Source: an uncultured Actinomycetota bacterium (GTDB lineage Bacteria; Actinomycetota; Actinomycetes; Mycobacteriales; Mycobacteriaceae). Taken from it: 64,000 nt of DNA. A program made the translations under genes and the position numbers. A model generated the notes under the pieces. That model did no database searches. It was not told where the DNA came from and saw only the letters and a program-made list of their open reading frames with translations. Shown here one piece after another: positions 1-47,786 of this stretch (the stretch's first letter is position 1; each line of letters starts with the position of its first letter). The stretch spans positions 108,110 through 172,109 of the forward strand of contig CAWAGK010000017.1 of NCBI GenBank assembly GCA_963781685.1. Direction: 5' to 3'.

Positions 1-486
1 TACGGCACCTTCGTGCTCGGTTCCTTCTACATCATCCCCAGCATTCTTGCGGTGCGGGGCACCGGAATGGACGGCGTTGTGAAGGTGCAGGAATGGCGCG
101 ACCGCATCGACGATAACCCGGCCAACAAGCAGCGGTTCCTCGACTTCGACTCCGACGAGTTCCTCAAGGTGATGCTGCGCTGGCTCAACGCGTTCGTTTC
201 CAAGCCGGGACAGACGATTCCGGGCGTCGAGGACGAAATGTTCGATCGCATAAAGGTCCCCACGTTGATCATTCGTGGCGGCGAGAACGACATGGACCAC
301 CCCAAACGGACGTCGCTGGAAGTCAGCTGCCTGATCAAGGGATCGAAGTTGATCGACCCGCCGTGGCCGGAGGACGCGTGGGAGCGTGCGTCCGAAGAGC
401 GCGCGGCGGGCAAGGTGAAGCACTTCAACATGTTCGACACCTGGGTGAAGGCGGCCCCGGCGATCCTCGAATTCCTAGGGCGCTAA
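1..486 (+). CDS. Alpha/beta hydrolase family protein, 5'-truncated by window edge
   Basis: Frame open from base 1; C-terminal hydrolase-like segment (IKVPTLIIRGGENDMDHP); stop at 484-486. Confidence 0.6.
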   Translation, partial: YGTFVLGSFYIIPSILAVRGTGMDGVVKVQEWRDRIDDNPANKQRFLDFDSDEFLKVMLRWLNAFVSKPGQTIPGVEDEMFDRIKVPTLIIRGGENDMDHPKRTSLEVSCLIKGSKLIDPPWPEDAWERASEERAAGKVKHFNMFDTWVKAAPAILEFLGR

Positions 487-491
487 TGCAT

Positions 492-965
492 TTACCGCGT
501 GTGAATGTGGACCTCGCAGTTGAGCGAGGCCTCCAGGGCTGTGTGGACCCGGCTCTCGGGGATGCGGTCCAGGTCTTCCTCCCGCAGCGTCACGTGGACG
601 ATGTCGTAGCCGTCGTCGCCCGGTGCCCGGATGATGTCGCCGGTGAGCCCGAAGCCCGCCAACACACCGTGCGCGTCGTCGTCGGTTCCCCTGCTGACAA
701 AGGTCACCACACCGGGCAACGCCGTGCCGCCAAAGGCCTTGGTGCACATCTCGATTGCCGTGCGCTTGGCCGTGTCGGCGTCTTCGGCAGCGATGAGCAA
801 TTCCACCTCTCGGCGACTGGTCGGCATCGACGTGAGCTCGCATGCCACTATGTCGACGCCCGCCTCGCCGACGAGCCTAAGGAGGACCACCATGCCCTCT
901 CGTAGCCGCGCATGCGTGAATCGTCCCTCAGGGTCGATGTTGACGCGCACCACGGCAGTCCGCAT
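492..965 (-). CDS. Conserved hypothetical protein (157 aa)
   Basis: Coherent ORF filling the gap, convergent with the hydrolase and divergent from the NuoF-like gene; no recognisable motif. Confidence 0.7.
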   Translation of the reverse strand: MRTAVVRVNIDPEGRFTHARLREGMVVLLRLVGEAGVDIVACELTSMPTSRREVELLIAAEDADTAKRTAIEMCTKAFGGTALPGVVTFVSRGTDDDAHGVLAGFGLTGDIIRAPGDDGYDIVHVTLREEDLDRIPESRVHTALEASLNCEVHIHTR

Positions 966-1002: not shown

Positions 1003-2316
1003 ATGAACACCAGCCAGATGACCACCCAGGCCGGACCGATCACCGTGGCGACCGCGCCGGGCTGCCCGCCGAGGCTGCTGGGCGAGCAGCCCCAAACCCG
1101 CGAGGGCCTCGCGGCGTACCGGGCACGGGGGGGCTATCGGCCACTGACCGACGCCGACGAACTGCTGAGCGAGGTCGAGTCCAGCGGGCTGGTCGGTCGC
1201 GGCGGCGCGGCCTTCCCGCTCGCGGTGAAGTTGCGCACGGTTCGCGATAACGGCAGCCGCGCGGGCGGCACCGTCGCCGTCGCCAACGGCGAAGAGGGAG
1301 AACCGGCTTCGATCAAGGACCGCTGGCTGCTGCGCAACCGCCCGCACCTGGTTCTGGACGGGCTGCGGCTGGCCGCTGTGATGGTGGCCGCCGACAGCGC
1401 CTACGTCTACGTGTCCGACCCCGAATCGGCCCGCAGCGTCGAAGCGGCGCTCGCAGAGCTCGGCTCCGAGCTGCACGGCATCACGGTCGACCTGCTGACG
1501 GTGCAGCCCGGGTACGTGGCCGGCGAGGAGACCGCCGCGGTCCGGGCGATCAACGGCGGCCCGGCCAAGCCGACCGACAAGCCACCACGCCCGTTCGAAG
1601 CCGGCGTCGCCGAACGGCCCACGCTGGTTAGCAACGTCGAAACGCTGGCCAACCTGCCCTTCCTGCAGAGCGAAGGCTCGGCCGCATTCCGCTCCCAGGG
1701 CACCCCGGTGTCGCCGGGCACATTCCTGGCCACCATCACCGGGGCGGGACGACCACCAGTGCTCTACGAACTGCCGCACGGTCTACCGTTCACTGAACTG
1801 CTTGCCCTGCACGGAGTTTCACCGGACCGGGTGCGAGGCGCGCTTATGGGCGGGTACTTCGCGGGCCTGCTCGACCGACGAGTGCTCGAGACATCGCTGG
1901 ATCACGAGACGATGCGCCGGTTCGACAGCGGTCTGGGCTGCGGCGCGGTCTCGGTGATCACCGACGACTGCCCGGTCGCGGTAGCCGCCGCGGTGCTGGC
2001 CTACTTCGACCGTGAAAACGCCGGCCAGTGCGGGTCATGCTTCAACGGGACGGCGGCGATGGCTGCCGCTGCGGGCGCATTGCGCGACGGCGCCGCCACC
2101 GTGGAAGACGTGGAGCGGCTGCGCCGCTGGTCGGTGGTGCTGCGCGGGCGTGGTGCCTGCGCGACCCTGGACGCCGCGACGAACGTCGCGGCAAGCCTGC
2201 TCGCTCAGTTTCCCGACGAGGTCGCCCGCCATCTGGAAGGCGCCTGCCAGAACTGCGGCAACCAACCGTTCCGCGCCGAGCGTCCCTACGAGGTGGAGAG
2301 GGTGACGCAGGCATGA
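1003..2316 (+). CDS. Stand-alone NADH:ubiquinone oxidoreductase subunit F (NuoF/51 kDa)-like flavoprotein
   Basis: GLVGRGGAAFP, NGEEGEPASIKDR, YVAGEETA, PTLVSNVETLAN and QCGSCFNG motifs; no other nuo genes nearby. Confidence 0.9.
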   Translation: MNTSQMTTQAGPITVATAPGCPPRLLGEQPQTREGLAAYRARGGYRPLTDADELLSEVESSGLVGRGGAAFPLAVKLRTVRDNGSRAGGTVAVANGEEGEPASIKDRWLLRNRPHLVLDGLRLAAVMVAADSAYVYVSDPESARSVEAALAELGSELHGITVDLLTVQPGYVAGEETAAVRAINGGPAKPTDKPPRPFEAGVAERPTLVSNVETLANLPFLQSEGSAAFRSQGTPVSPGTFLATITGAGRPPVLYELPHGLPFTELLALHGVSPDRVRGALMGGYFAGLLDRRVLETSLDHETMRRFDSGLGCGAVSVITDDCPVAVAAAVLAYFDRENAGQCGSCFNGTAAMAAAAGALRDGAATVEDVERLRRWSVVLRGRGACATLDAATNVAASLLAQFPDEVARHLEGACQNCGNQPFRAERPYEVERVTQA

Positions 2317-2609
2317 AAATTCGCCTTGACCGCACGGTCTGCGACGGCTTTGGTATTTGCGCTAAACACGCACCCGGCTACTTCTCCCTCGACGACTGGG
2401 GATACGCGTCACTGATCGGTGACGGCACCGTCGCCGAAGCTGACGAGCATGCGGTTATGAACGCACTACTGGACTGCCCGGTGCACGCCATCACCGAGAT
2501 GGGTGAGCCCAAACCCAGCATTCGCCATCCAGAGTTGCGCGACGACGAGGATCCTGCCGCGCACCTCAAAACCGAGGCCAACGAAGCGGAGTGGGGTTTC
2601 ACGCGTTGA
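2313..2609 (+). CDS. Ferredoxin (3Fe-4S/4Fe-4S type) with C-terminal extension
   Basis: ATG at 2313 overlaps NuoF stop (ATGA); MKIRLDRTVCDGFGIC...CPVHAI. Confidence 0.85.
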   Translation: MKIRLDRTVCDGFGICAKHAPGYFSLDDWGYASLIGDGTVAEADEHAVMNALLDCPVHAITEMGEPKPSIRHPELRDDEDPAAHLKTEANEAEWGFTR

Positions 2610-4261
2610 CCGAGAACACCGGACGCCCGCTGCCTCTGATCACCGACGACAATGAATTCTTCTGGCGCTCAGGCGCCGACGGCACACTGCGACTGCAGGG
2701 CTGCGCCGACTGCGACTCCCTCATCCATCCGCCGGCGCCGATCTGCCGCTACTGCCGCTCGCACCGTCTCGAGGTGCGGGCGGTGTCGGGTCGAGCGACC
2801 CTGGCCGGATTCACCATCAATCACCGATTCAGCCTGCCCGGGCTGCCCGCGCCGTACGTCGTCGCCCAGGTCGCGATCGCCGAAGACCCGCGGGTTCGAC
2901 TGACCACCAACATCATTGACTGCGACCCCGAGCAGTTGCAGCTTGGTCAGCAAGTCGAGGTCGTCTTCGAGCAGGTCGAGGACGTCTGGCTGCCGTTGTT
3001 CCGGCCTACCGAAGACACCCGACCCGCCGCGCTGCCGATCGACGAAATCGCCCCGGAGCGCTTCGGTGAATACGTCCGCCCGATGCTCACGCCGGAGAAG
3101 TTCGAAGACAAGGTCGCGCTGACCGGCATCGGCATGTCGGAGATCGGGCGCCGGTTGATGGTGCCGCCACTATCGCTGACGGTAGCCGCGTGCGAAGCCG
3201 CGATCGCCGACGCCGGCCTGACACTCGACGACATCGACGGACTGTCGACCTACCCCGGCGGGGGCAACCTCGGCGGGTTCGGCGAAGGCGGAGTCACCGC
3301 GCTGGAGGCCGCTTTGGGCATCCGGCCGACGTGGCACAACGGCGGCATCGAAACCTTCGGCCCGGGCGGCTCGGTGATCGCGGCGATGCTGGCGATCGCC
3401 GGTGGCCTGGCCCGTCACGTGCTGTGCTTCCGGACGCTTTGGGAAGCGACCTTCAACGAGCAGATGAAGCAGGGCAAGATCGTTCCGTCGATGGGCCGCA
3501 GGGCCGATTGGCTGATGCCGTTCGGTGCCACATCGGCGGCTCACACGTTGGCGCAGAACGCGCAACGCCATTTCCATCGCTACGGGACGACGAAAGAGAC
3601 GCTGGGCTGGATCGCATTGAACCAGCGCGCTAACGCCGAACTCAATCCGTCGGCGGTGTACCGGTCTCCGATGACGATGGACGACTATCTCAACGCGCGG
3701 CCGATCACCACACCGTTCGGGCTCTACGACTGTGACGTCCCCTGCGACGGGGCGATAGCCGTCATCGTCTCGGCCGTCGACGCCGCCCGCGACATGGCCA
3801 AGCCGCCGGTGTTGGTGGAGGCGGTGGGCACGCAGATCATCGAGCGAATCGATTGGGACCAAAGCACATTGACCCACGAGCCGCAGGTGCTCGGCCAATC
3901 CGCGCACCTGTGGTCACGCACCTCGCTGCGGCCCGAGGACGTCGACGTCGCCGAGCTCTACGACGGGTTCACGATGAACTGCCTGTCCTGGATCGAAGCG
4001 CTGGGGTTCTGCCGAATCGGTGAGGCCAAGGAATTCCTGGATGGCGGTAAGAACATCGCCCGAGACGGCCAGCTGCCGCTCAACACACACGGCGGTCAGC
4101 TGTCACACGGCCGAACGCATGGCATGGGTCTGCTGCACGAAGCCGTCAGCCAGTTGCGCGGTGAGGCCGGGCAGCGGCAGGTCGCCGACGCCCGCGTCGG
4201 CGTGGTGAGCAGCGGCGGCCTGACTCCCAGCGGCGTGCTGCTGCTGCGGGCTGACGCATGA
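2606..4261 (+). CDS. DUF35 (Zn-ribbon + OB-fold) fused to SCP-x/Ltp2-like thiolase-fold protein
   Basis: TTG overlaps upstream stop; N-terminal CADC...CRYC plus OB-fold (GQQVEVVFE); C-terminal thiolase fold (CDGAIAVIV, ELYDGFT, LNTHGGQLSHG). Confidence 0.88.
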   Translation: MTENTGRPLPLITDDNEFFWRSGADGTLRLQGCADCDSLIHPPAPICRYCRSHRLEVRAVSGRATLAGFTINHRFSLPGLPAPYVVAQVAIAEDPRVRLTTNIIDCDPEQLQLGQQVEVVFEQVEDVWLPLFRPTEDTRPAALPIDEIAPERFGEYVRPMLTPEKFEDKVALTGIGMSEIGRRLMVPPLSLTVAACEAAIADAGLTLDDIDGLSTYPGGGNLGGFGEGGVTALEAALGIRPTWHNGGIETFGPGGSVIAAMLAIAGGLARHVLCFRTLWEATFNEQMKQGKIVPSMGRRADWLMPFGATSAAHTLAQNAQRHFHRYGTTKETLGWIALNQRANAELNPSAVYRSPMTMDDYLNARPITTPFGLYDCDVPCDGAIAVIVSAVDAARDMAKPPVLVEAVGTQIIERIDWDQSTLTHEPQVLGQSAHLWSRTSLRPEDVDVAELYDGFTMNCLSWIEALGFCRIGEAKEFLDGGKNIARDGQLPLNTHGGQLSHGRTHGMGLLHEAVSQLRGEAGQRQVADARVGVVSSGGLTPSGVLLLRADA

Positions 4262-5148
4262 GGCCGCACCCGCGGGTCGTCATCGTCGACGGCGTGCCGA
4301 TGTCCGCGCTGGTCTGCGAGGCACCCGACCCGCGGGCGGTCATCGTGGCCATCCACGGCGGAGGCACCACCTCAATCTATTTCGACTGTCCGGGGCATCC
4401 CGAATCGTCCTTCCTGCGCACCGGCGCCGCACAGGGCTTCACCGTGATAGCGCTCGACCGCCCCGGCTACGGCAGCTCGGCCCCCTATCCGGAAGCGGTG
4501 GCCCGCCCCGAACAGCGTGTCCAGCTTGCCTATTCGGCTGTCGATCGCATTCTCGGTGAACGACCGCGCGGCGCCGGCGTGTTCTTGATGGGCCATTCCG
4601 GCGGATGCGAATTGACGATGCGGATGGCGGCCGACGAACGCGGTAGCGACCTGCTGGGTATCGAATTGGCCGGAACCGGAAGGCATTACCACCCGGCGGC
4701 CCGCGACATGCTGAAGACGGCAACCCGGGACCGCCGCCCGTCGGGTCTGCGTCAACTGTTGTGGCAGCCGGAAGGGCTGTATCCGCCCGAGGTGCTCAAC
4801 GGGGCAACGGTGTATCCGGGGGCTCCGCCCTACGAGGACCTGATGGTGTCCAACTGGGCCCGTCAGGACTTTCCGGCGCTTGCACCTGCGGTGCGCGTAC
4901 CGGTGCACTTCAGCATCGCCGAGTACGAGAAGGTCTGGCAGAACGACACTTCGGCGATGACTGAGATCGAGGGCACGTTCTCCAGCGTGCCGCGATTCGT
5001 CGTCCATCACCAACCCGACGCCGGACACAACATCAGCCTCGGCCACACCGCCGCGGATTACCACGCGACGGTTCTGGTGTTCGCCGAGGAATGCTTGTCT
5101 GCTCAAAAGCAAGGCACGCGTGAAAGTCCCGACTTGGAGGCCGGTTGA
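4258..5148 (+). CDS. Alpha/beta hydrolase
   Basis: HGGG oxyanion, DRPGYG, GHSGG nucleophile elbow, AGHNI. Confidence 0.85.
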   Translation: MRPHPRVVIVDGVPMSALVCEAPDPRAVIVAIHGGGTTSIYFDCPGHPESSFLRTGAAQGFTVIALDRPGYGSSAPYPEAVARPEQRVQLAYSAVDRILGERPRGAGVFLMGHSGGCELTMRMAADERGSDLLGIELAGTGRHYHPAARDMLKTATRDRRPSGLRQLLWQPEGLYPPEVLNGATVYPGAPPYEDLMVSNWARQDFPALAPAVRVPVHFSIAEYEKVWQNDTSAMTEIEGTFSSVPRFVVHHQPDAGHNISLGHTAADYHATVLVFAEECLSAQKQGTRESPDLEAG

Positions 5149-5966
5149 TGCACGTCGGATTCATTGGCTTGGGCAGTCAGGGCGGCCCGATGGCGGGGCG
5201 GATCGTCGAAGCGGGCTTTCCGACAACGCTGTGGGCGCGCCGGCCGGCGTCACTCGAGCCGTTCGCCGACACCGCGGCCAAGGTCGCCGGGTCACCGGCG
5301 GAACTCGCGGCCAGTAGCGATCTCGTTTGCCTCTGCGTAGTCGGAGACGCCGACGTCGAGGAGATCAGCGGCGGCGAGAACGGAGTGCTGGCCGGACTCA
5401 AGCCGGGCGGCGTGATCGCCATCCACAGCACCGTCCACCCCAAGACCTGCCATGAGCTATCGAAGAAGGCTGGCGCGCAAGGCGTCTCGGTGATCGACGC
5501 GCCGGTGAGCGGTGGCGCTCCGGCGGTGGCGGAACGTCGTCTGCTGGTGATGGTCGGGGGTGACGCCGACGTGGTCGAGCGCTGCCGCCCGGTGTTCGAG
5601 ACCTACGCCAACGCGATAGTGCACCTGGGCGATCTGGGCTCCGGACAAACCACCAAGCTGTTGAACAACCTGCTGTTCACCGCAAACCTGGGAACGGCGG
5701 CCTCCGCCTTGGCGCTCGGCGAGGCACTCGGCGTCCTGCCGGACCGGCTCACCGACGTCATCTCGCGCGGCAGCGGAAACAGCTTCGCGCTCAACGCTCT
5801 TGGCGGTGACACCGGCGGTTTGGACCGCCTCGCCGGTCTTGCCGGAACGCTGCTGCAGAAGGACGTGCGCTTGGTCGCCGACCTGGCCGATGCCGCCGCC
5901 GTCCCCGGCGGGGCTGTGCTCGACACGGCCGACGCCACCCTCACTCTGATGAAACACCCACGGTGA
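5148..5966 (+). CDS. NAD(P)-dependent oxidoreductase (3-hydroxyisobutyrate/6-phosphogluconate dehydrogenase family)
   Basis: GFIGLGSQG Rossmann motif, DAPVSGG, KLLNN. Confidence 0.9.
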   Translation: MHVGFIGLGSQGGPMAGRIVEAGFPTTLWARRPASLEPFADTAAKVAGSPAELAASSDLVCLCVVGDADVEEISGGENGVLAGLKPGGVIAIHSTVHPKTCHELSKKAGAQGVSVIDAPVSGGAPAVAERRLLVMVGGDADVVERCRPVFETYANAIVHLGDLGSGQTTKLLNNLLFTANLGTAASALALGEALGVLPDRLTDVISRGSGNSFALNALGGDTGGLDRLAGLAGTLLQKDVRLVADLADAAAVPGGAVLDTADATLTLMKHPR

Positions 5967-6766
5967 GAATCGGATTCATCGGCGCGGGACGGATGGGACG
6001 TCCCATGGTGGCCCGTCTCGTCGAGGCCGGTCACGACGTCGCGGCCGTGGGCCGCACCGCCGAAAATCGCTCCACTATTGCCCAATTGGGCGCCGACGCG
6101 GTCGCCGACATGGCTGAGGCGACGGTCAATGCGGACGCGGTGGTGATCTGCGTGTTCACCGACGAACAGCTGCGGCAGATCTGTGTGGATGACAGCCTGC
6201 TCGCGACCATGTCGCCGGGCTCAGCCCTGGTGGTGCACACCACGGCAAGTCCGCACACGGTCGAGACCATCGCCGTACGCGCAGCAGACCGCGACATCGA
6301 CGTGGTCGACGCACCGGTCAGCGGAGGCCCGCACAACGCCGCGGCCGGTGCCCTGACGCTGTTCGTCGGTGGCGCAGAGGAGGCGGTGGCCCGAGTGCGC
6401 CCGATGTTGAGCTGCTACGGCGATCCGGTCTTGCACGTCGGGCCGCTGGGTGCGGGGCAAAAGGTGAAGCTGGTCAACAATGCACTGTTCGCAGCTCACA
6501 TCGGATTGCTCTCCGGCTCCGTCGAGCTCGGTGCGCGGCTCGGCCTGCCGGAGTCGACGCTGCTCACCGCCCTTCCACACGGCAGCGCGGCGAGTCGCGT
6601 GCTGGACATCGTCGCCGCGGGCGGATCCGTCGCGTCGTTCATCGACACGGCGGGCGAGTTCGTCAGCAAAGACGTTGCCGTGGCCCGGAGCATCGCCGCC
6701 GAGATGGGCAGTGGCCTGGGCGTGCTCGACAACGCCATCGACGCGGTCATGCCGAGGGTGAGATGA
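5963..6766 (+). CDS. NAD(P)-dependent oxidoreductase (3-hydroxyisobutyrate dehydrogenase family), tandem paralogue
   Basis: GFIGAGRMG, DAPVSGG, KLVNN; GTGA overlap with the previous gene. Confidence 0.9.
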   Translation: MRIGFIGAGRMGRPMVARLVEAGHDVAAVGRTAENRSTIAQLGADAVADMAEATVNADAVVICVFTDEQLRQICVDDSLLATMSPGSALVVHTTASPHTVETIAVRAADRDIDVVDAPVSGGPHNAAAGALTLFVGGAEEAVARVRPMLSCYGDPVLHVGPLGAGQKVKLVNNALFAAHIGLLSGSVELGARLGLPESTLLTALPHGSAASRVLDIVAAGGSVASFIDTAGEFVSKDVAVARSIAAEMGSGLGVLDNAIDAVMPRVR

Positions 6767-6865
6767 GGTCTTTTCGACACGCGATGAACCGTCTACCGTT
6801 AGCGTTACAGTCAAGCATTCCGTCGTAACGGTCTAAGCCGCTCACTGGGCGGTGGGGAGGGTGCA

Positions 6866-8071
6866 ATGACCAAACCAAAGGTCGTCTTTGATCCGTTCTC
6901 CGAGGAGTACTTCACAAATCCGTTCGATATCTACCGACGAATGCGTGAGGACGCACCGCTCTACTACGACGAGAAAGAGGACTTCTACGCGCTGACCCGC
7001 CACGAAGACGTGGCCGGCGCGCTCAAGGACCATGAGACCTTTTCCTCAAGCCGTGGTTGTGACCTGGCGATGGTGCGCAGGGGTATATCCCCCGAGCAGA
7101 AGTCGATTATTTTCATGGACCCGCCGCAGCACCGCCAAATGCGCAGCCTGCTCAACAAGGCCTTCACGCCGCGGGCCATTCAATCGCAGCACGACACAGT
7201 CGTCGAGGTCGTCGACAAATACCTGAGCGCGGCCGACCCCGACGAGTTCGACGTCGTGCAGGACTTCTCCGGGCCGTTCCCCGTTGAAGTCATCACCACG
7301 ATGGCCGGAGTGCCGGAGGAATACCGCCAACAGGTACGGCACTGGATCGACACCAGCCTGCACCGGGAACCGGGACAAATCGAAATCAGCGAAGCCGGCA
7401 TGCAGGCCAACATCGACACCGCGATGTATTACTTCGGGCTGGTGCAGGAACGGCGCGAAAACCCGCAGGACGACATGCTCAGCAAGCTGATCGCCGCCGA
7501 AATCCCCGGCGAGAATGGGCAGACTCGAAAGCTCGACGATATTGAAATATGCGGTTTTGCCACGCTTCTGGGCGGGGCCGGCGCCGAGACCGTCACAAAG
7601 TTGATCGGCAGCGCGGCGGTGCTCTTCGCCCGCAACCCAGACCAATGGGAGAAGCTGAAAGAAGACCGCAGCAAGATCCCCGGCGCCGTCGAAGAATTGT
7701 TGCGCTACGAGGGACCGGTGCAGTACAACGTCCGCTGGACCTTGAAAGAGGCACACACCAGCGGTGGCACGATTCCCGCCGGCAAGCCGGTGTTCTTGAT
7801 GAAGGCCGCGGCGAACCGCGACCCCGACGCCTTCACCAACGCCGACACCTTCGACATCGAGCGCGACCAGACCGAGGCGCAGCACCTCGGTCTGGGGTAC
7901 GGAATTCACAGCTGCCTGGGTGCGGCATTGGCTCGGATGGAAAGCAGGATCGCACTGGAAAAGCTGCTGGACTTCATGCCCCGCTACGAAGTGAATTGGG
8001 AGGGCTGCAAGCGAGTCACCATGCAGAATGTCGCGGGCTGGCTGAACGTACCGGTGAAAGTATTGCGCTAA
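6866..8071 (+). CDS. Cytochrome P450
   Basis: I-helix GGAGAETV, EELLR (ExxR), heme motif GLGYGIHSCLG. Confidence 0.95.
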   Translation: MTKPKVVFDPFSEEYFTNPFDIYRRMREDAPLYYDEKEDFYALTRHEDVAGALKDHETFSSSRGCDLAMVRRGISPEQKSIIFMDPPQHRQMRSLLNKAFTPRAIQSQHDTVVEVVDKYLSAADPDEFDVVQDFSGPFPVEVITTMAGVPEEYRQQVRHWIDTSLHREPGQIEISEAGMQANIDTAMYYFGLVQERRENPQDDMLSKLIAAEIPGENGQTRKLDDIEICGFATLLGGAGAETVTKLIGSAAVLFARNPDQWEKLKEDRSKIPGAVEELLRYEGPVQYNVRWTLKEAHTSGGTIPAGKPVFLMKAAANRDPDAFTNADTFDIERDQTEAQHLGLGYGIHSCLGAALARMESRIALEKLLDFMPRYEVNWEGCKRVTMQNVAGWLNVPVKVLR

Positions 8072-8082
8072 GGGGCCTTTGA

Positions 8083-8280
8083 ATGACGAAGAGGATCGAA
8101 GTCGACTGGGGTCTGTGCGAAAGCAACGGGGTGTGCATGGGGATCATCCCGGAGGTGTTTCGGCTCGAGGATGACGACACACTGACCGTGCTGCAGGACG
8201 AAGTCACGCCGGAGAACGAAGCACAGGTGCTGGATGCGGTCCGGCAGTGCCCGCGGCAGGCCATTTCGATCACCGAATAG
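8083..8280 (+). CDS. Ferredoxin
   Basis: CESNGVC...CPRQAI directly after the P450. Confidence 0.92.
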   Translation: MTKRIEVDWGLCESNGVCMGIIPEVFRLEDDDTLTVLQDEVTPENEAQVLDAVRQCPRQAISITE

Positions 8281-12330: not shown

Positions 12331-12519
12331 TCAGCGTTCGGCGATGGCCTGTTCGGGGCAGCAATCGATGGCCTCTTGGGTGGCCGCCTCGAATTCCGTT
12401 GGCACATCGGAATCGATCGCCTCGGCGTAGCCATCGTCGGTCAGGTTGAACACATCCTCACACAGCGTGACGCACACGCCGTGGCCGCGGCAGCGCTGGT
12501 CGTCAACCCAGACTTTCAT
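12331..12519 (-). CDS. Ferredoxin
   Basis: CRGHGVC...CPEQAI; ATG overlaps the P450 stop. Confidence 0.92.
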   Translation of the reverse strand: MKVWVDDQRCRGHGVCVTLCEDVFNLTDDGYAEAIDSDVPTEFEAATQEAIDCCPEQAIAER

Positions 12520-13787
12520 GCCGGCGTGAACTCCAGGTGCAGCTCGGTCAGGCCGCGCAGGATGTAGGTCGGAACATATTGGTAGCGACGATCATTCGCC
12601 GGCCCGTGAACGCGTTCGTTGATCCGGATGTCGGACGTGCGGTCCAGCAGCCGCTCGATGGCCACCCGCGTTTCGGCACGCGCCAATGGCGCACCGGGGC
12701 AGCTGTGAATGCCCCGCCCAAACGAGATGTGCTGGCGGGCATTCTTTCTGGCCGGATCGAATGTGGTGGGGTCTTCGAACCGGCGCGGATCGCGGTTGGC
12801 CGCGGCCTGCACGACCATCACCGTTGTGCCAGCTGGCAAGTCGACTCCGCCGATGTTGACCGGCCTGCGGTTCATCCGGAAATCTCCCTTAACCGGGCTC
12901 TCGATGCGAAGCGACTCTTCGATGAAGTTCGGAATCAGGCTGCGGTCCTTGCGCAACTGCGCCTGGATGTCGGGACGCTCCCCCATGGTCTGCAGCGCGG
13001 CGCCCAGCAGTCGCACGGTGGTTTCCTGACCCGCCGAGAAGACGTTGCTCGCGACGCGCGCGACATCCTCGACATCAGGAGTCGAGCCGTCGGGGTAGGT
13101 GGCGGTCGCGAGGCCGGTCAGCACGTCGTCGCGGGGCTCACGGCGGCGGTCCCGGACATAGTCGGAGAAAAGACCGTAGAGGAATTCCAGCGGGCTGTGC
13201 GCCAGCGATTCCTTGCCGGTGCCCCCGACGCCGCCCCCCGAGTGCTCACGGATGCCTTTGATGAACTTGTCGCGATCTTCCATGGGCACGCCCAGCAGAT
13301 CGGCGATGACCAGCAGCGTGAAGGGACCCGCGAAGCCCTTGATCCATTCGCCTTCGCCAGGAGCCAGGAATCCGTCGAGCACTTGGTCGGCGAGCACCCA
13401 CATGGCGTCCTCGTTCTCCTTGAGGCGCTTCGGGGTGATCAGCCGCATCAGCAGGGAGCGGTGGTTGGTGTGGGTCGGCGGATCAAGTGTGGGCAGCTGG
13501 TCGCTGAACGGCAGCTCGTCGCGATGTTGCTCGATCAGCTCGGTGACGTCGTCACCCTCGAGCGGCACCGGAAAGCCGGGAAACGGACCGGTCACCGAGA
13601 TGCACGACGACCACGTCTCGGCGTCGTTGAGCACGGCGCAGGCCTCGTCCCAACCCGTCACCATCGTGACGTCGTGGTGGCTTTCCCGGGTCACCGGGCA
13701 CTGCTGCCGCAGCGCCTCGTAGTAGGGGTACGGGTCCGCGATGAGCTCGCTGCCGCGGAAGAAGTCCAACTCGGTGAAGTCATTCAC
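12516..13787 (-). CDS. Cytochrome P450 (CYP150-like)
   Basis: FSAGQETT I-helix, EESLR, SFGRGIHSCPG; probable GTG start at 13787 (ORF open to 13805); subfamily from memory only. Confidence 0.93.
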   Translation of the reverse strand: MNDFTELDFFRGSELIADPYPYYEALRQQCPVTRESHHDVTMVTGWDEACAVLNDAETWSSCISVTGPFPGFPVPLEGDDVTELIEQHRDELPFSDQLPTLDPPTHTNHRSLLMRLITPKRLKENEDAMWVLADQVLDGFLAPGEGEWIKGFAGPFTLLVIADLLGVPMEDRDKFIKGIREHSGGGVGGTGKESLAHSPLEFLYGLFSDYVRDRRREPRDDVLTGLATATYPDGSTPDVEDVARVASNVFSAGQETTVRLLGAALQTMGERPDIQAQLRKDRSLIPNFIEESLRIESPVKGDFRMNRRPVNIGGVDLPAGTTVMVVQAAANRDPRRFEDPTTFDPARKNARQHISFGRGIHSCPGAPLARAETRVAIERLLDRTSDIRINERVHGPANDRRYQYVPTYILRGLTELHLEFTPA

Positions 13788-13816
13788 TATCGCGCACCGC
13801 TCCAATCTCGATCTGT

Positions 13817-30797: not shown

Positions 30798-32096
30798 TCA
30801 GTCCTTGTTGCCGGTCAGTTCTTTCGCGCTGGCGGCGAATTCCGCGAACGACGAACCCGACCTGGCGTCTTTGTGGTGGCTGAGGGCGCGGATCGAAACG
30901 TCGTGGCCCTCAGCGGCCTTGCGTAGCGCGCCCACGCTCGCCTGCGCCGGAGTGATGTGGCTGAACGGGTCGAACGAGTACCAGCGCATCGCGTTCTCAT
31001 GGGACATCTTCTTGATCTCGTCGTCCGGGACGTTGTTGATGGACAACACATCCCACAGCTCTTCGGGCGCGCCCGGCCACATCGAGTCGCTGTGCGGGTA
31101 GTCGGCCTCCCAGCAGATGTTGTCGATGCCGATCATGTTGCGCAACGCCACGCCGACCTTGTCGCTGATGAAGCAAGTCAGGAAGTGCTCGCGGAAGATG
31201 TCGCTGGGCAGCTTGCCCTTGAAGTCCTGATGCGTCCACGTCGAGTGCATCTCGTAGGTCCGGTCTGCCCGCTCCAGGAAATAAGGGATCCAGCCGGTGC
31301 CGCCCTCGGACAGCGCGACCTTGAGATCCGGGTACTCCTTGATTGGCCGCGACCACAGCAGATCCGCGGCGGCCTGCACGATGTTCATCGGCTGCAGGGT
31401 GATCATCACGTCCATCGGTGCATCGGGGGCGGTGATCGCCAGCCGTCCCGATGATCCGATGTGCACGTTCATCACGGTGTTGGTGTCGCACAACGCTTTC
31501 CACAGCGGATTCCAGTATTCGTTGTGGAAGCTCGGGTAGCCCATCGCGGCCGGGTTCTCGGTGAAGGTCAGCGCGTGCACGCCCTTCTTGGCCACCCGTC
31601 GCACCTCTTTGGCGCACTCCTCGGCGTCCCAGATCACGGGTATCGCCATCGGGATGAACCGTGCCGGGTAGGCACCACACCATTCGTCGATGTGCCAGTC
31701 GTTGTAGGCCTGCACCAGTGCTACCGAGAACTCTGGGTCCTCGGTGGCGAACAGGCGTCCGGCGAAACCGGGGAACGACGGGAAGCAGATCGAGGCCAGG
31801 ATGCCCCCGGCATTCATGTCCTTGATCCGCTCGTCGACGTTGTAGCAACCCGGCCGGATCTCGTCGAGGCCCTGCGGCTCGAGCCCGTACTCCTCTTTCG
31901 GGCGGCCGGCCACCGCGTTGAGCGCGACGTTGGGGATCACGGTGTCGCGGAACTGCCAGCAGTCGGAGCCGTCCGCGTTGTGCACCAGCCGCGGCGCGTC
32001 ATCGGCGTACTTCTTGGGCAGGTGGTTCTTAAACATGTCAGGTGGCTCAACGGTGTGGTCGTCGACGCTGATCAAAATCATGTCGTCTTTGTTCAC
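30798..32096 (-). CDS. Amidohydrolase family protein (amidohydro_2 type)
   Basis: ISVDDH, AYNDW, HIGSSG, SEGGTGWIP, WEADYPHSDS. Confidence 0.92.
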   Translation of the reverse strand: MNKDDMILISVDDHTVEPPDMFKNHLPKKYADDAPRLVHNADGSDCWQFRDTVIPNVALNAVAGRPKEEYGLEPQGLDEIRPGCYNVDERIKDMNAGGILASICFPSFPGFAGRLFATEDPEFSVALVQAYNDWHIDEWCGAYPARFIPMAIPVIWDAEECAKEVRRVAKKGVHALTFTENPAAMGYPSFHNEYWNPLWKALCDTNTVMNVHIGSSGRLAITAPDAPMDVMITLQPMNIVQAAADLLWSRPIKEYPDLKVALSEGGTGWIPYFLERADRTYEMHSTWTHQDFKGKLPSDIFREHFLTCFISDKVGVALRNMIGIDNICWEADYPHSDSMWPGAPEELWDVLSINNVPDDEIKKMSHENAMRWYSFDPFSHITPAQASVGALRKAAEGHDVSIRALSHHKDARSGSSFAEFAASAKELTGNKD

Positions 32097-32902: not shown

Positions 32903-34183
32903 TTGCCGCACTTCCCTAAACCAGCCGCTGGCAGCTGGACGGAAAACTACCCGGAATTGGGCACTGCACCGGTCGATTACACCGACTCCATCGATCCGGC
33001 GTTCTTCGAGGCCGAGCGCAACGCGATCTTCAAGAAGACGTGGCTCAACGTCGGTCGAGTCGAGCGGCTGCCGCGCACCGGCAGCTACTTCACCAAGGAG
33101 CTGCCGTCGGCGGGCCCGGGCATGTCGGTGATCGTCGTCAAGACCAAGGACGGGGCGATCAAGGCGTATCACAACGTCTGCCGTCACCGCGGAAACAAGT
33201 TGGTTTGGAACGACTTTCCGCATGAGGAGACCTCGGGCACCTGCCGGCAGTTCACCTGCAAGTACCACGCGTGGCGCTACAGCCTCGACGGCGACCTGAC
33301 CTTCATCCAGCAGGAGGATGAGTTCTTCGACGTCGACAAGAGCCAATTCGGCCTGGTTCCCGTGCGTTGCGAGTTGTGGGAAGGGTTCATCTTCATCAAC
33401 TTCGACCAACACGCCAAGCCGCTCACCGACTACCTCGGGCCGCTGGCCAAGGGCATCGAGGGCTACCCCTTCCACGAGATGACCGAGACGTACTCCTACC
33501 GTGCTGAGGTCGGCAGCAACTGGAAGCTGTTCATGGACGCCTTCGCGGAGTTCTACCACGCGCCGGTGTTGCACCAGGGGCAGTACACCAAGGAAGAAGC
33601 CGCCAAGATCATGAAATACGGCTTCGAGGCGCTCTACTACGAGATGGCAAGTCCGCACGCGATGATCTCGACTTGGGGCGGTCAGGCGCCGCCCGTGGAC
33701 ATGTCGATGGTGAAGCCGACGGACCAGGTGCTGCGCAGCGGGCTGTTTGGCCCCTGGGACAAGCCGGAAGTTATCGAGAAGCTCACCGAACTGCCGCCGG
33801 GGGTGAACCCGAAGAAGGTGCCGCAGTGGGGGATCGACGAGTGGCACTTCTACCCGAACTTCATGCTGCTGATCTGGGAGCCGGGCTGGTTCCTGACCTA
33901 TCACTACTGGCCGACCGCCGTCGACAAGCACATCTTCGAGTGCACGCTGTATTTCGTTCCGCCGCGCGATGCGCGGGAGCGCTTGGCCCAGGAGCTGGCG
34001 GCGGTGACGTTCAAGGAGTACGCGCTTCAGGATGCGAACACGCTGGAAGCAACCCAGACCATGATCGGCACCAAGGTCGTCACCGACTTCCTGCTATGCG
34101 ATCAGGAGATCATGCTGCGCCATCTGCACAAAGTGACCGGTGACTACGTGAAGGAGTACCAGAACAATGGCGCTACCGTCTGA
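32903..34183 (+). CDS. Rieske non-heme iron oxygenase alpha subunit
   Basis: CRHRG...CKYHAW Rieske ligands; NWK...EFYHAPVLH and QDA iron ligands. Confidence 0.95.
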   Translation: MPHFPKPAAGSWTENYPELGTAPVDYTDSIDPAFFEAERNAIFKKTWLNVGRVERLPRTGSYFTKELPSAGPGMSVIVVKTKDGAIKAYHNVCRHRGNKLVWNDFPHEETSGTCRQFTCKYHAWRYSLDGDLTFIQQEDEFFDVDKSQFGLVPVRCELWEGFIFINFDQHAKPLTDYLGPLAKGIEGYPFHEMTETYSYRAEVGSNWKLFMDAFAEFYHAPVLHQGQYTKEEAAKIMKYGFEALYYEMASPHAMISTWGGQAPPVDMSMVKPTDQVLRSGLFGPWDKPEVIEKLTELPPGVNPKKVPQWGIDEWHFYPNFMLLIWEPGWFLTYHYWPTAVDKHIFECTLYFVPPRDARERLAQELAAVTFKEYALQDANTLEATQTMIGTKVVTDFLLCDQEIMLRHLHKVTGDYVKEYQNNGATV

Positions 34184-34490
34184 ATTCGCTGACCTGGAGC
34201 CCTTTTTGGAGTGGGACCTGGCCACCGAACCCGAGCGCTATGCCAAGCGGCTGGCCTCGTCGATGGCCGAGATGCAGACCTTCTACGACGTCGCGTTCCC
34301 GCGCCTGAACGACGTGATCACCTACTGCGACAAGCACCGCCTAGACGATCTGCCCGAGGACGCGCGGACCCTCATGCACCTGATGCAGTCGCTGATCATG
34401 GTGTCGTTTCCGATTGAAGCGTGGAAGCAGCCGCGCGTCCCCGACAGCGGCGCGGCCTGGGTCGAATTGACCAGGGAGCCGGTGATTTAA
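34167..34490 (+). CDS. Conserved hypothetical protein (107 aa)
   Basis: Overlaps the Rieske gene 3' end; coherent ORF in an operon. Confidence 0.8.
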   Translation: MALPSEFADLEPFLEWDLATEPERYAKRLASSMAEMQTFYDVAFPRLNDVITYCDKHRLDDLPEDARTLMHLMQSLIMVSFPIEAWKQPRVPDSGAAWVELTREPVI

Positions 34491-45094: not shown

Positions 45095-46267
45095 CTACAG
45101 ACCAAGGAATTTGGTGATGTTACCGCTGACGATCTGCGCGGCCGCCTGGGGACCGACCGCATCGACCACCGAGGCCAACGACTTCTCCGAATAACCGAAG
45201 GTGCTTTCGTTGTGCGGGTAGTCGCTGGACCACATCACCTTGTCGACGCCGATCTGGTCGATCAACTTAAGTCCGAGCGGGTCGACCATGAACGATGCGC
45301 TCATGTGGTTGTCCCAGTAGTAGCGCACGTCGTGCTCCAGGGGCCGATTGAACATGTGCTGGTATGACGCAACCAGGTGCTCGGCGTCCTGCAAAGCCCA
45401 AGGCACCCAAGCGATTCCGCCTTCGAACCAGCCGATCCGCAGACTCGGGTGATCGTCGAGGATCCCGGAGAAGAGGTACTTGGCGAATTGTTCGCGGAAT
45501 CCGTCGATGTTGATCATCATGCCGACCACGACGCTGTTGTACTGGCACGGGGTCTTCGGCGGGGTCTCGCCGATGTGGTGGGCCACCGGAAGTCCGGCGG
45601 CTTCGATCTCGTCCCAGACCGGTTTCATCGCGGTGCTGCCGTAGTCGATGATGTTGCCCTCGTCGTCCTTGCCCGGATTCAGCGGCAACAGGAAAGTCCT
45701 GAGCCCCAAAGACTTCAACTCGGCCAGTGTCCGTTTGGTGCCTTCCGGATCCCACCAGTTGATCAGGCCCGCACCGTAGAAGTGGCCGTTGGAACGCTCC
45801 TGCAACTCGGCGATGTACTCGTTGTAGATGCGGAACGCGAGCTCGCGAAGCTGTTTGTCCGGGTAGTGGAACAGCGCCAGGATCGCGTTCGGGAACGCCA
45901 GCTCCTTCTCGACGCCGTCCTCGCGCAGCTCCTGAATCCGGGCCTCGATGTTGGTGCTCGCGGCCCCGGGCAGGTCGTCGTACTGCATCAGCACCGCGCT
46001 GAAGTCGCCCGGCAGGAAGGACTGTCCTTTGCGTCCGACCTGGTAGGCGCCGTCCTCGTACCAGATCCGCGGCGCCTTTTCTTTGAGCTCGTCCGGGAAT
46101 CGTTCGTAGAAGATGTCGGCGGCCAGCGAAATGTGATTGTCCGCAGAGAAAACCACGGTTCCTTCCGGCAGGCCGACGTTGGCGCCGTTGGCGCGACCGT
46201 GTCGATCCTTGGGTGCGCCAAACCCACCGGGCGGGTAGAGCGAGGCGGTGCTTGTTTGAGGCGACAT
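45095..46267 (-). CDS. Amidohydrolase family protein
   Basis: SADNH, IYNEY, HHIGE, FEGGIAW, WSSDYPHNES. Confidence 0.92.
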   Translation of the reverse strand: MSPQTSTASLYPPGGFGAPKDRHGRANGANVGLPEGTVVFSADNHISLAADIFYERFPDELKEKAPRIWYEDGAYQVGRKGQSFLPGDFSAVLMQYDDLPGAASTNIEARIQELREDGVEKELAFPNAILALFHYPDKQLRELAFRIYNEYIAELQERSNGHFYGAGLINWWDPEGTKRTLAELKSLGLRTFLLPLNPGKDDEGNIIDYGSTAMKPVWDEIEAAGLPVAHHIGETPPKTPCQYNSVVVGMMINIDGFREQFAKYLFSGILDDHPSLRIGWFEGGIAWVPWALQDAEHLVASYQHMFNRPLEHDVRYYWDNHMSASFMVDPLGLKLIDQIGVDKVMWSSDYPHNESTFGYSEKSLASVVDAVGPQAAAQIVSGNITKFLGL

Positions 46268-46299
46268 CAATGGCCCTCCAATCGGATCCATGTTCGTTC

Positions 46300-47591: not shown

Positions 47592-47786
47592 TCACTCCTC
47601 GATGTGGATGGCCAGTGCGGGGCAACCCGCCGCGGCCTTGCGGGCGTTGTCGGCCTGGTCGGTGGGCGGGTTCTCGTTCAGCAGAATGACGACTCCGTCA
47701 TCGTCGCGCTGGTCGAAGATTTCGGGCGCATGCATCACGCAGTTTCCCGACGATGCGCAGATATCTTGGTCCACAGTCACTTTCAT
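47592..47786 (-). CDS. Ferredoxin
   Basis: MKVTVDQDICASSGNC...CPALAI. Confidence 0.92.
   Translation of the reverse strand: MKVTVDQDICASSGNCVMHAPEIFDQRDDDGVVILLNENPPTDQADNARKAAAGCPALAIHIEE

What the first reader, a model, noticed from the sequence alone, without database searches (positions are those of the whole stretch)
1003..2609. Stand-alone NuoF-like flavoprotein coupled to a ferredoxin: candidate non-canonical electron supply for P450/Rieske enzymes
Seen: a full-length NuoF homologue with no other nuo genes, translationally coupled (ATGA) to a ferredoxin. The cluster motif reads ENAGQCGSC, where canonical NuoF has ESCGxCxPC, so one Cys ligand is replaced by Ala. The window has three P450s and a Rieske oxygenase but no classical ferredoxin reductase. 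Inference: this pair oxidises NAD(P)H and feeds electrons to the local oxygenases, possibly via a 3Fe-4S or otherwise altered cluster.
Basis: partly seen in the sequence, partly recalled or inferred. Interest (0 to 1): 0.58.

Follow-up and report, generated by a model that had tools for sequence, protein, structure and literature searches.

The report
NuoF-type reductase for amidohydrolase-fold oxygenase
A stand-alone relative of the NADH-binding subunit of respiratory complex I, always paired with a tiny three-cysteine ferredoxin, most likely supplies electrons to a recently described kind of two-metal oxygenase encoded just left of the window, not mainly to the nearby P450s; no paper I could search describes this type of oxygenase reductase.

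Summary
ORF 1003-2316 (437 aa) is a full-length NuoF homologue without nuo neighbours. Its stop overlaps (ATGA) the start of a 98-aa ferredoxin, and its cluster motif reads ENAGQCGSC, with Ala where NuoF has the first Cys.

The Ala motif marks a large NuoF-like subfamily that is nearly always followed by, or fused to, a three-Cys Fer4_15 ferredoxin. A tree splits this subfamily in two. One clade sits beside MsrQ-like membrane proteins. The other sits beside Rieske oxygenases or small Rieske ferredoxins, and the window's protein belongs to it.

The conserved partner lies just left of the window: an AibH1H2-like pair of "amidohydrolases" (ARO dinuclear oxygenase) plus a small Rieske ferredoxin.
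- It is present in every locus with enough flank (70/70, 71/71, 74/74).
- It occurs in the same 31 of 300 sampled Mycobacteriales genomes as the NuoF-like gene (own genome aside).

The P450 block is often displaced, sometimes absent, and missing outside Mycobacterium. Each P450 also has its own ferredoxin.

Most likely chain: NAD(P)H, FMN, three-Cys cluster, ferredoxin, Rieske ferredoxin, oxygenase. Nothing is shown biochemically.

The scan reached similar readings on other DNA. I found no paper proposing this function.

The parts
1..486 (+). 3' part of an alpha/beta-hydrolase gene (288 aa in full). It is the last gene of the upstream unit ARO alpha' - ARO alpha - small Rieske ferredoxin - hydrolase. 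The first three genes lie left of the window, at L083 8912-10000, 10060-11187 and 11189-11602 (window coordinate = L083 coordinate minus 12000).
   Evidence: Pfam and tblastn on L013 and L083. Present in 77/77 loci with enough flank.
492..965 (-). Conserved 157-aa protein of unknown function on the opposite strand, with a tandem ACT-like fold. It belongs to the conserved gene set in all four genera.
   Evidence: No Pfam or NCBIfam match. Present in 77/79 loci. AF2 mean pLDDT 90.5. Weak Foldseek matches to ACT-domain pairs of aspartate kinase (E about 1e-3, TM about 0.3).
1003..2316 (+). NuoF-like flavoprotein (437 aa): FMN/NAD(P)H-binding domain plus a C-terminal Fe-S domain with a three-Cys site (Ala340, Cys343, Cys346, Cys386).
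2313..2609 (+). 98-aa single-cluster ferredoxin with motif CDGFGIC...CP (CXXFXXC(X)nCP, three Cys). ATGA-coupled to the NuoF-like gene. Counterpart of M. marinum Fdx6 by motif, length and synteny.
2591..8280 (+). Co-directional, tightly packed downstream genes: DUF35-thiolase fusion (2591-4261), alpha/beta hydrolase (4258-5148), two HIBADH-like dehydrogenases (5145-5966, 5963-6766), a P450 (6866-8071) and that P450's own CXXNXXC ferredoxin (8083-8280). These are possible secondary clients, not the conserved partner.
   Evidence: Variable linkage across loci.

Best explanation
The NuoF-like protein and its coupled ferredoxin form the NAD(P)H-oxidising reductase arm of a multicomponent monooxygenase. 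The oxygenase is an AibH1H2-like pair of amidohydrolase-fold proteins (an ARO, amidohydrolase-related dinuclear oxygenase). Its electron shuttle is a small Rieske ferredoxin. All three are encoded just left of the window.

Inferred path: NAD(P)H gives a hydride to FMN in the NuoF-like protein. Single electrons pass through its three-Cys cluster to the three-Cys (probably [3Fe-4S]) ferredoxin. They then go to the Rieske ferredoxin and on to the dinuclear (Fe2 or Mn/Fe) site of the catalytic ARO subunit.

The pair takes the place of AibF, the FMN/[2Fe-2S] reductase of the Rhodococcus Aib hydroxylase. Shown here: sequence features, synteny, phyletic co-occurrence and clade structure. Inferred: cofactor content, direction and order of electron transfer, the nucleotide used and the substrate.
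For: 1. NuoF-like fold with FMN/NADH motifs at least 97% conserved in 91 family members: GRGGAxFP, ANGEEGEP, AGEETA, DKPPRP, NVETLA.
2. Ala340 is invariant. Cys343, 346 and 386 are invariant in 91 relatives. Ala is also found in 118 of 141 aligned cluster representatives at 36-55% identity.
3. The ferredoxin follows the gene in 79/80 mycobacterial loci, in all five metagenome look-ups that reached past the gene's end (a sixth contig ended there) and in 16/17 Ala-type loci of a phylum-wide sample, but in 0/3 canonical-type loci. Natural Fer4_15::NuoF-like fusions exist.
4. The tree separates canonical NuoF from the Ala-type. The Ala-type splits into an oxygenase-linked clade (support 99/98; Rieske oxygenase, Rieske ferredoxin, ARO; includes the window) and a clade linked to MsrQ-like (Ferric_reduct) membrane proteins (97/95).
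5. Upstream genes are present in every locus with enough flank: Amido1 70/70, Amido2 71/71, Rieske 74/74. The same order is found in three other genera. In one of them the Rieske gene is followed directly by the NuoF-like gene and the ferredoxin.
6. In one sample of 300 Mycobacteriales genomes (own genome aside), the NuoF-like orthologue and the Amido2 orthologue occur in the same 31 genomes, 2-3 kb apart.
7. Amido1 and Amido2 best match solved AROs: 8SM7, AibH2 (6M1W_B, E 6e-53), SfbO (8SM6) and PtmU3. Amido2 has the N-terminal D-x-H and DYPHWTF. Amido1 is degenerate, like the non-catalytic AibH1. The Rieske protein has C-x-H...C-x-x-H.
8. Published ARO systems use a small Rieske ferredoxin plus a reductase (PMC7782822, PMC10811679, PMC13154177).
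Against: - No biochemistry exists for any member.
- In Mycobacterium an antisense gene (492-965) separates the ARO-Rieske-hydrolase unit from the NuoF-like gene, so they are probably separate transcripts here. The NuoF-like gene and ferredoxin are instead packed with the thiolase-to-P450 genes.
- Two ferredoxins in series (three-Cys ferredoxin, then Rieske) is unusual. The small ferredoxin may be a subunit of the reductase rather than a shuttle.
- Amido2 breaks the published ARO signature D-x-P-H-x-D/E. It has Thr at the last position, invariant in 82 orthologues.
- The genome has two more Rieske-ARO triads with no reductase nearby, so the pair may not be dedicated to one oxygenase.
Confidence: 0.65

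Rival explanations
1. The pair is a dedicated reductase arm for the neighbouring P450s (CYP190-like at 6866-8071 and CYP150-like at 12516-13805). This is what the first reader proposed. It also follows from the proximity-based pairing of M. marinum Fdx6 with CYP190A3.
For: - In this genome the NuoF-like gene, the ferredoxin and four further genes overlap by 4-19 bases. The P450 follows 100 bp later on the same strand.
- The P450 lies within 10 kb downstream in 54 of 62 loci.
- No classical reductase is in the window.
- Child et al. 2018 list Fdx6 beside CYP190A3.
Against: - Each P450 has its own ferredoxin next to it, one of them ATGA-coupled.
- The block directly follows the ferredoxin in only 26 of 62 loci. 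It is pushed 0.8-4.8 kb away in 30 and absent in 5.
- It is absent from all 7 loci of other genera or Mycolicibacterium G029, which still keep the NuoF-like gene, the ferredoxin and the ARO-Rieske genes.
- No member of the oxygenase-linked clade was seen with a P450 as its only neighbour.
Confidence: 0.2
2. The pair is a shared hub reductase. One NuoF-like/ferredoxin pair per genome serves several oxygenase systems in trans: the three Rieske-ARO triads, the P450 ferredoxins and perhaps the Rieske oxygenase.
For: - Only one Ala-type NuoF-like gene is in the genome.
- There are three Rieske-Amido1-Amido2 triads. Two of them (contigs C9 and C6) have no reductase within 6 kb.
- The window holds two more genes with the full ARO signature and three P450/ferredoxin pairs.
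Against: - The genome holds about 30 Pyr_redox_2 proteins, several around 400-420 aa, that could be ordinary ferredoxin reductases.
- Tight synteny with one particular ARO-Rieske set argues for a preferred partner.
Confidence: 0.3
3. The protein is a decayed or non-redox NuoF paralogue, or it works in a different process such as transmembrane electron export, like its MsrQ-linked sister clade.
For: - One cluster ligand is lost.
- The protein scores below every NuoF family cut-off.
- The sister clade is tied to MsrQ-like (Ferric_reduct) membrane proteins (PMC8238504).
Against: - No Ferric_reduct gene is at this locus.
- The remaining three Cys and the FMN/NADH motifs are invariant over 40-97% identity.
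- The gene is intact in 23 of 24 sampled Mycobacterium genomes.
Confidence: 0.05

Closest known systems
AibH1H2 / AibG / AibF, the 2-aminoisobutyrate monooxygenase of Rhodococcus wratislaviensis (PMC7782822, PMC10401708; PDB 6M1W, 8FUL-8FUO), and the wider ARO superfamily (PMC10811679, PMC13154177)
   Same: - Two adjacent PF04909 subunits, one with the metal ligands and one degenerate.
- A small Rieske ferredoxin is encoded next to them.
- An FMN-dependent reductase is presumed.
- Amido2 matches AibH2 at E 6e-53.
   Different: - AibF is a 322-aa FMN/[2Fe-2S] reductase. Here the reductase genes are a 437-aa NuoF-like protein plus a separate three-Cys ferredoxin.
- The catalytic subunit has DYPHWT where the published signature requires D or E at the last position.
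- The substrate is unknown.
NuoF / Nqo1 / 51-kDa subunit of respiratory complex I, and the related HydB, HoxF, FdsB and NfnB
   Same: Same fold and same FMN/NADH-binding motifs. Alignable over about 380 residues (32-35% identity).
   Different: - No NuoE or NuoG partner.
- Not in a nuo operon.
- Below all curated NuoF cut-offs.
- The first Cys of the N3 motif is Ala throughout the subfamily.
- Obligately paired with a small ferredoxin.
NuoF-like proteins in MsrQ-like gene clusters (Meheust et al. 2021, eLife, PMC8238504)
   Same: Same Ala-type subfamily with the same downstream ferredoxin. Likewise inferred to take electrons from NAD(P)H.
   Different: It is the sister clade. It is linked or fused to a Ferric_reduct membrane domain rather than to oxygenases.
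M. marinum Fdx6 (Mmar_4730) and the CXX?XXC(X)nCP [3Fe-4S] ferredoxins of Child et al. 2018 (PMC6237146)
   Same: - Same motif (CXXFXXC) and same length (97 versus 98 aa).
- Same gene order around it: metal-dependent hydrolases, Rieske, hydrolase, NuoF-like, Fdx6, thiolase, CYP190A3, Fdx7, Fdx8, CYP150A5.
   Different: That paper pairs Fdx6 with CYP190A3 by proximity and gives Mmar_4729 no role. Equivalence with the window's genes rests on motif and synteny, not on a sequence comparison made here.
Three-component Rieske oxygenase chains with a [3Fe-4S] ferredoxin and a glutathione-reductase-type reductase (type V in the Kweon et al. 2008 scheme; from my own knowledge)
   Same: The order is NAD(P)H reductase, then a small three-Cys ferredoxin, then a Rieske centre. 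Relatives of the window's protein sit in Rieske oxygenase operons.
   Different: The reductase has a NuoF fold with FMN and Fe-S, not an FAD glutathione-reductase fold.

Membership tests
NuoF (complex I subunit F, TIGR01959) | Scores above the curated family cut-off | tested here: not met
   214.5 bits against a cut-off of 558.65. The genome's real NuoF scores 644.7.
NuoF (complex I subunit F, TIGR01959) | Encoded in a nuo operon next to NuoE and NuoG | tested here: not met
   Neighbours are a hydrolase, an unknown protein, a ferredoxin and a thiolase. nuoD-E-F-G lie on contig C3.
NuoF (complex I subunit F, TIGR01959) | FMN/NADH-binding domain with the conserved motifs | tested here: met
   PF01512 E 2.8e-31. 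The motifs are conserved in 91 relatives.
NuoF (complex I subunit F, TIGR01959) | Four-Cys N3 site, CxxCxxC...C | tested here: not met
   The first Cys is Ala340, invariant in 91/91. The other conserved Cys (323, 415/418) also occur in canonical mycobacterial NuoF, so they are not substitutes.
Ala-type NuoF-like / Fer4_15 pair (unnamed subfamily) | Motif E/Q-[SN]-A-[GR]-Q-C-G-x-C | tested here: met
   ENAGQCGSC here. Ala in 118 of 141 aligned representatives.
Ala-type NuoF-like / Fer4_15 pair (unnamed subfamily) | A three-Cys ferredoxin immediately downstream or fused | tested here: met
   ATGA overlap here. 79/80 loci, 5/5 look-ups that reached past the gene's end, 16/17 phylum-sample loci, and fusions.
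Ala-type NuoF-like / Fer4_15 pair (unnamed subfamily) | Falls in the oxygenase-linked clade | tested here: met
   Clade support 99/98 on a 37-row maximum-likelihood tree.
ARO multicomponent monooxygenase (AibH1H2/AibG/AibF type) | PF04909 subunit with N-terminal D-x-H | tested here: met
   Amido2 has DSDVH, conserved in orthologues.
ARO multicomponent monooxygenase (AibH1H2/AibG/AibF type) | C-terminal D-x-P-H-x-D/E | tested here: not met
   Amido2 has DYPHWT. The Thr is invariant in 82 orthologues. The solved AROs shown in the alignments have D at this position.
ARO multicomponent monooxygenase (AibH1H2/AibG/AibF type) | Small Rieske ferredoxin (C-x-H...C-x-x-H) encoded next to it | tested here: met
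   137-aa protein, PF00355 E 4.2e-13. CPH...CPWH conserved in 84-85 orthologues.
ARO multicomponent monooxygenase (AibH1H2/AibG/AibF type) | AibF-type FMN/[2Fe-2S] reductase | tested here: not met
   No such gene in the conserved block. The NuoF-like gene and the ferredoxin occupy that place.
ARO multicomponent monooxygenase (AibH1H2/AibG/AibF type) | O2-dependent hydroxylation by a dinuclear Fe2 or Mn/Fe site | not testable with these tools
   Needs protein chemistry.
Class I P450 redox chain | FAD ferredoxin reductase of the Pyr_redox_2 type | tested here: not met
   No full-length match in the window. About 30 elsewhere in the genome.
Class I P450 redox chain | Ferredoxin encoded next to the P450 it serves | tested here: inconclusive
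   The NuoF-coupled ferredoxin ends 4.3 kb upstream of the nearest P450, and that P450 has its own ferredoxin 11 bp downstream.

The most novel reading that the evidence does not exclude
Ala-type NuoF-like flavoproteins with their obligate three-Cys ferredoxin are an undescribed class of NAD(P)H-dependent reductase for oxygenases: Rieske oxygenases, Rieske-ferredoxin/ARO systems and, per an earlier scan note, a heme oxygenase. They use a three-Cys version of the complex I N3 site, either [3Fe-4S] or Cys3-X [4Fe-4S]. In Mycobacterium one such pair may serve as the common electron source for several ARO triads and P450 ferredoxins.
Probability: 0.5. Interest if true: 0.75.

Novelty: new variant of a known kind. 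Interest (0 to 1): 0.62.

Why it matters
- Multicomponent oxygenases are classed by their electron-transfer chains. To my knowledge those classes hold only FNR/PDR-type and glutathione-reductase-type reductases. A complex I-type flavoprotein in this role would add a class.
- AROs are a newly recognised and mostly misannotated oxygenase superfamily. Their native reductases are unknown apart from AibF. This locus names a candidate reductase.
- The gene was found in 23 of 24 sampled Mycobacterium genomes, and its M. marinum counterpart genes (Mmar_4724-4730) are already named in the literature. That makes reconstitution directly testable.
- Many mycobacterial P450s lack a known reductase. If the pair also reduces P450 ferredoxins, it would help explain how they get electrons.
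- A natural three-Cys variant of the N3 site is also of interest for Fe-S chemistry.

Tried and rejected
- Fourth cluster ligand: I looked for a compensating Cys. Cys323 and Cys415 are invariant and Cys418 nearly so. The genome's own canonical NuoF, M. smegmatis NuoF and HydB have Cys at the equivalent places, so I dropped them as substitutes. No model coordinates were available to measure distances.
- AibF-like reductase: I checked whether the 322-323-aa genes beside the two paralogous ARO triads were AibF-like. They are Abhydrolase_3 esterases.
- Unknown 157-aa protein: the fold search gave only weak ACT-domain matches. The Atlas look-up gave only unnamed actinobacterial clusters.
- Literature: no paper in the library holds NuoF, Rieske, ferredoxin reductase and oxygenase together. 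The 21 papers with 'NuoF-like' concern hydrogenases, Nfn, Rnf or MsrQ-like systems. Only Child et al. 2018 mentions the M. marinum locus tags.
- Gene calling: my own GC3-based gene caller failed on many diverse loci. I replaced it with tblastn using typed queries.
- Not done: I did not fold the NuoF-like protein, because the sequence match to solved NuoF and HydB chains already covers its length.
Full report
**1. Observation**

The window is 64% G+C mycobacterial DNA. It corresponds to contig C17, bases 108110-172109, of a 6.16-Mb genome.

ORF 1003-2316 (+) gives a 437-aa protein.
- It matches Pfam Complex1_51K (residues 58-219) and NADH_4Fe-4S (327-410).
- It aligns over residues 35-417 with solved NuoF-type chains: T. 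maritima HydB at E 1.2e-52 and M. smegmatis NuoF at E 4.2e-50.
- Its stop overlaps, as ATGA at 2313-2316, the start of a 98-aa Fer4_15 ferredoxin.

Residues 338-346 read ENAGQCGSC. They align with ESCGKC(V/T)PC of HydB, M. smegmatis NuoF and the genome's own NuoF. The first cluster ligand is therefore Ala.

This is not the respiratory NuoF.
- It scores 214.5 bits on TIGR01959, against a cut-off of 558.65.
- A nuoD-E-F-G set lies on contig C3, and its NuoF scores 644.7 bits.

- There are three P450s and one Rieske oxygenase alpha subunit.
- There are four small three-Cys ferredoxins.
- There is no full-length Pyr_redox_2 reductase in the window, though the genome has about 30 elsewhere.

**2. 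The Ala motif marks a subfamily, always with a ferredoxin**

Among 91 relatives taken from fetched loci, Ala340, Cys343, Cys346 and Cys386 are invariant. So are the FMN/NADH motifs.

A search of 1.84 billion cluster representatives gave 1101 proteins at E 1e-30 or better. I aligned the best 150, less one of 1859 aa, with the query (36-55% identity for the full-length ones). Position 340 is Ala in 118 of the 141 rows without a gap there and Cys in 8.

Cys323 and Cys415 are also invariant. Canonical mycobacterial NuoF and HydB carry Cys at the same places, so they do not look like replacements for the lost ligand. The site has three Cys, and its cluster type is open.

The ferredoxin partner is close to universal.
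- It follows the gene in 79 of 80 mycobacterial loci.
- It follows the gene, with overlapping stop and start, in all five metagenome look-ups that reached past the gene's end, at 39-55% identity. A sixth contig ended at the gene.
- In an evenly drawn phylum sample it follows 16 of 17 Ala-type genes and 0 of 3 canonical-type genes.
- Some proteins are natural Fer4_15::NuoF-like fusions.

All these ferredoxins have three Cys, in C-x-x-[F/Y/H]-x-x-C...C-P. This is the motif class that Child et al. 2018 showed to bind [3Fe-4S] in the members they examined (PMC6237146).

**3. Two clades with different partners**

A maximum-likelihood tree of 37 sequences separates canonical NuoF (support 100/100). 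It splits the Ala-type into two clades.
- One clade (97/95) sits next to, or is fused to, a Ferric_reduct (MsrQ-like) membrane domain. Meheust et al. 2021 noted this link and read it as NAD(P)H-driven transmembrane electron transfer (PMC8238504).
- The other clade (99/98) holds the window's protein. Every member with readable context is next to a Rieske oxygenase, a small Rieske ferredoxin or a Rieske ferredoxin plus an amidohydrolase pair.

**4. What lies beside the window's gene**

I fetched the genome upstream (L083) and related loci. The conserved order is:
- two Amidohydro_2 genes (Amido1 and Amido2),
- a 137-aa Rieske protein,
- an alpha/beta hydrolase, whose 3' end is window 1-486,
- a 157-aa unknown protein on the opposite strand (492-965),
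- the NuoF-like gene and then the ferredoxin.

In loci with enough flank the upstream genes are always there: Amido1 70/70, Amido2 71/71, Rieske 74/74, hydrolase 77/77, unknown protein 77/79.

The same set occurs in Mycolicibacterium and in two further genera of the order. In one of these the Rieske gene is followed directly by the NuoF-like gene and the ferredoxin.

I searched one sample of 300 Mycobacteriales genomes (own genome aside) with both proteins. The NuoF-like orthologue and the Amido2 orthologue are in the same 31 genomes: 23 of 24 Mycobacterium, 1 of 3 Mycolicibacterium, and 4 of 7 and 2 of 32 in two other genera. They lie 2-3 kb apart.

**5. The 'amidohydrolases' are ARO-type oxygenase subunits**

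Both best match solved amidohydrolase-related dinuclear oxygenases: 8SM7, AibH2 (6M1W chain B, E 6e-53 for Amido2), SfbO (8SM6) and PtmU3.
- AibH1H2 is the Mn/Fe hydroxylase of 2-aminoisobutyrate. It works with the Rieske ferredoxin AibG and the FMN reductase AibF (PMC7782822, PMC10401708).
- The ARO family was widened precisely through its link to small Rieske ferredoxins (PMC10811679).
- The published signature is an N-terminal D-x-H plus a C-terminal D-x-P-H-x-D/E (PMC13154177).

Amido2 has DSDVH and DYPHWTF. All is in place except Thr at the last signature position, and this Thr is invariant in 82 orthologues. The aromatic residue after it fits the class that pairs with Rieske ferredoxins (PMC13154177).

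Amido1 lacks both motifs, as expected for an AibH1-like non-catalytic subunit. The Rieske protein keeps CPH...CPWH.

No AibF-like gene is in the block. The NuoF-like gene and the ferredoxin are the only candidate entry point for NAD(P)H.

**6. The P450 link is weaker**

In this genome the NuoF-like gene, the ferredoxin, a DUF35-thiolase fusion, a hydrolase and two dehydrogenases overlap by 4-19 bases. A P450 follows after 100 bp. That supports co-transcription here.

Three observations weigh against a dedicated P450 role.
- Each of the three P450s has its own ferredoxin next to it: 8083-8280 (CXXN), 12331-12519 (CXXH, ATGA-coupled) and 47592-47786 (CXXS).
- Among 62 loci with at least 9.5 kb downstream, the thiolase-to-P450 block follows directly in only 26. 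It is 0.8-4.8 kb away in 30, and neither its thiolase nor its P450 is found in 5.
- The block is absent from all 7 loci of the other genera and Mycolicibacterium G029.

The locus matches, gene for gene, the M. marinum region described in the supplement of Child et al. 2018: Mmar_4724/4725 'metal-dependent hydrolases', 4726 Rieske, 4727 hydrolase, 4729 'similar to NADH dehydrogenase I chain F', 4730 Fdx6 (CXXF, 97 aa), CYP190A3, Fdx7, Fdx8 and CYP150A5. There Fdx6 was paired with CYP190A3 by proximity only, and Mmar_4729 was given no role. I infer the equivalence from motif, length and gene order, not from a sequence comparison.

**7. Mechanism, with what is shown and what is inferred**

Shown here: fold and motif conservation, the obligate ferredoxin partner, clade-specific partners, and synteny and phyletic co-occurrence with the ARO-Rieske genes.

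Inferred:
- NAD(P)H reduces FMN.
- Electrons leave one at a time through the three-Cys cluster to the three-Cys ferredoxin.
- They pass to the Rieske ferredoxin and then to the dinuclear site of Amido2.

The small ferredoxin may equally be a bound subunit of the reductase, as the fusions suggest. The nucleotide used, the cluster type and the substrate are unknown.

The genome holds two more Rieske-Amido1-Amido2 triads with no reductase nearby. The window holds two more genes with the full ARO signature. The pair may therefore serve several systems.

**8. Novelty**

In the searchable library, no paper links a NuoF-type protein with Rieske or ARO oxygenases. The ARO papers name no reductase other than AibF. 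The library is incomplete, so an earlier description cannot be excluded.

Earlier notes of this scan reached similar readings on other genomes. These were a Mycobacterium ARO with a NuoF-like reductase, a Rieske dioxygenase operon and a heme oxygenase operon. I consulted them after reaching my own reading, and they are not independent evidence.

I class the finding as a new variant of a known kind: a multicomponent oxygenase with a reductase of a type I could not find described.

Noticed in passing
window 30798-32096 (-) and 45095-46291 (-): Two more PF04909 genes carry the full published ARO signature (DDH with DYPHSD; DNH with DYPHNE). The second lies directly downstream of a ferredoxin (47592-47786) and a P450 (46335-47588) on the same strand, which suggests a ferredoxin shared by a P450 and an ARO.
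   Followed up: partly
own genome: L150 (G000:C9:102900-116100) and L151 (G000:C6:111300-124500): Two paralogous Rieske-Amido1-Amido2 triads (42-51% identity to the main set). Each lies beside a divergent P450, an Abhydrolase_3 esterase and a zinc alcohol dehydrogenase. No reductase lies within about 6 kb.
   Followed up: partly
window 492-965 (-): A conserved 157-aa protein without family matches. The AF2 model is confident (mean pLDDT 90.5) and shows two beta-alpha-beta-beta-alpha-beta units. The only weak matches are to ACT-domain pairs of aspartate kinase. It may be a ligand-binding regulator of the module.
   Followed up: partly
L131-L145, L090, L091, L100; proteins P0206, P0217: The sister clade has the order Ferric_reduct (MsrQ-like), NuoF-like, ferredoxin. 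It was found in 15 of the 17 Ala-type loci of the Actinomycetota sample and also occurs as Ferric_reduct::NuoF-like fusions.
   Followed up: partly
protein P0232 (1859 aa): A NuoF-like module sits at residues 1421-1799 of a very long protein. Its first 1400 residues have no Pfam match at E 1e-4.
   Followed up: no
window 12331-12519 (-) and 12516-13805 (-): The CYP150-like P450 and its CXXHXXC ferredoxin are also coupled by an ATGA overlap.
   Followed up: no
window 34167-34490 (+): A 107-aa ORF with no Pfam match overlaps the end of the Rieske oxygenase alpha gene (32903-34183). It may be one of the small helical partners of Rieske oxygenases reported in earlier scan notes.
   Followed up: no
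L004 12195-21299 and L011 12108-21266: In species that lack the thiolase-to-P450 block, the ferredoxin is followed by an open frame of more than 3000 aa, which I did not annotate.
   Followed up: no
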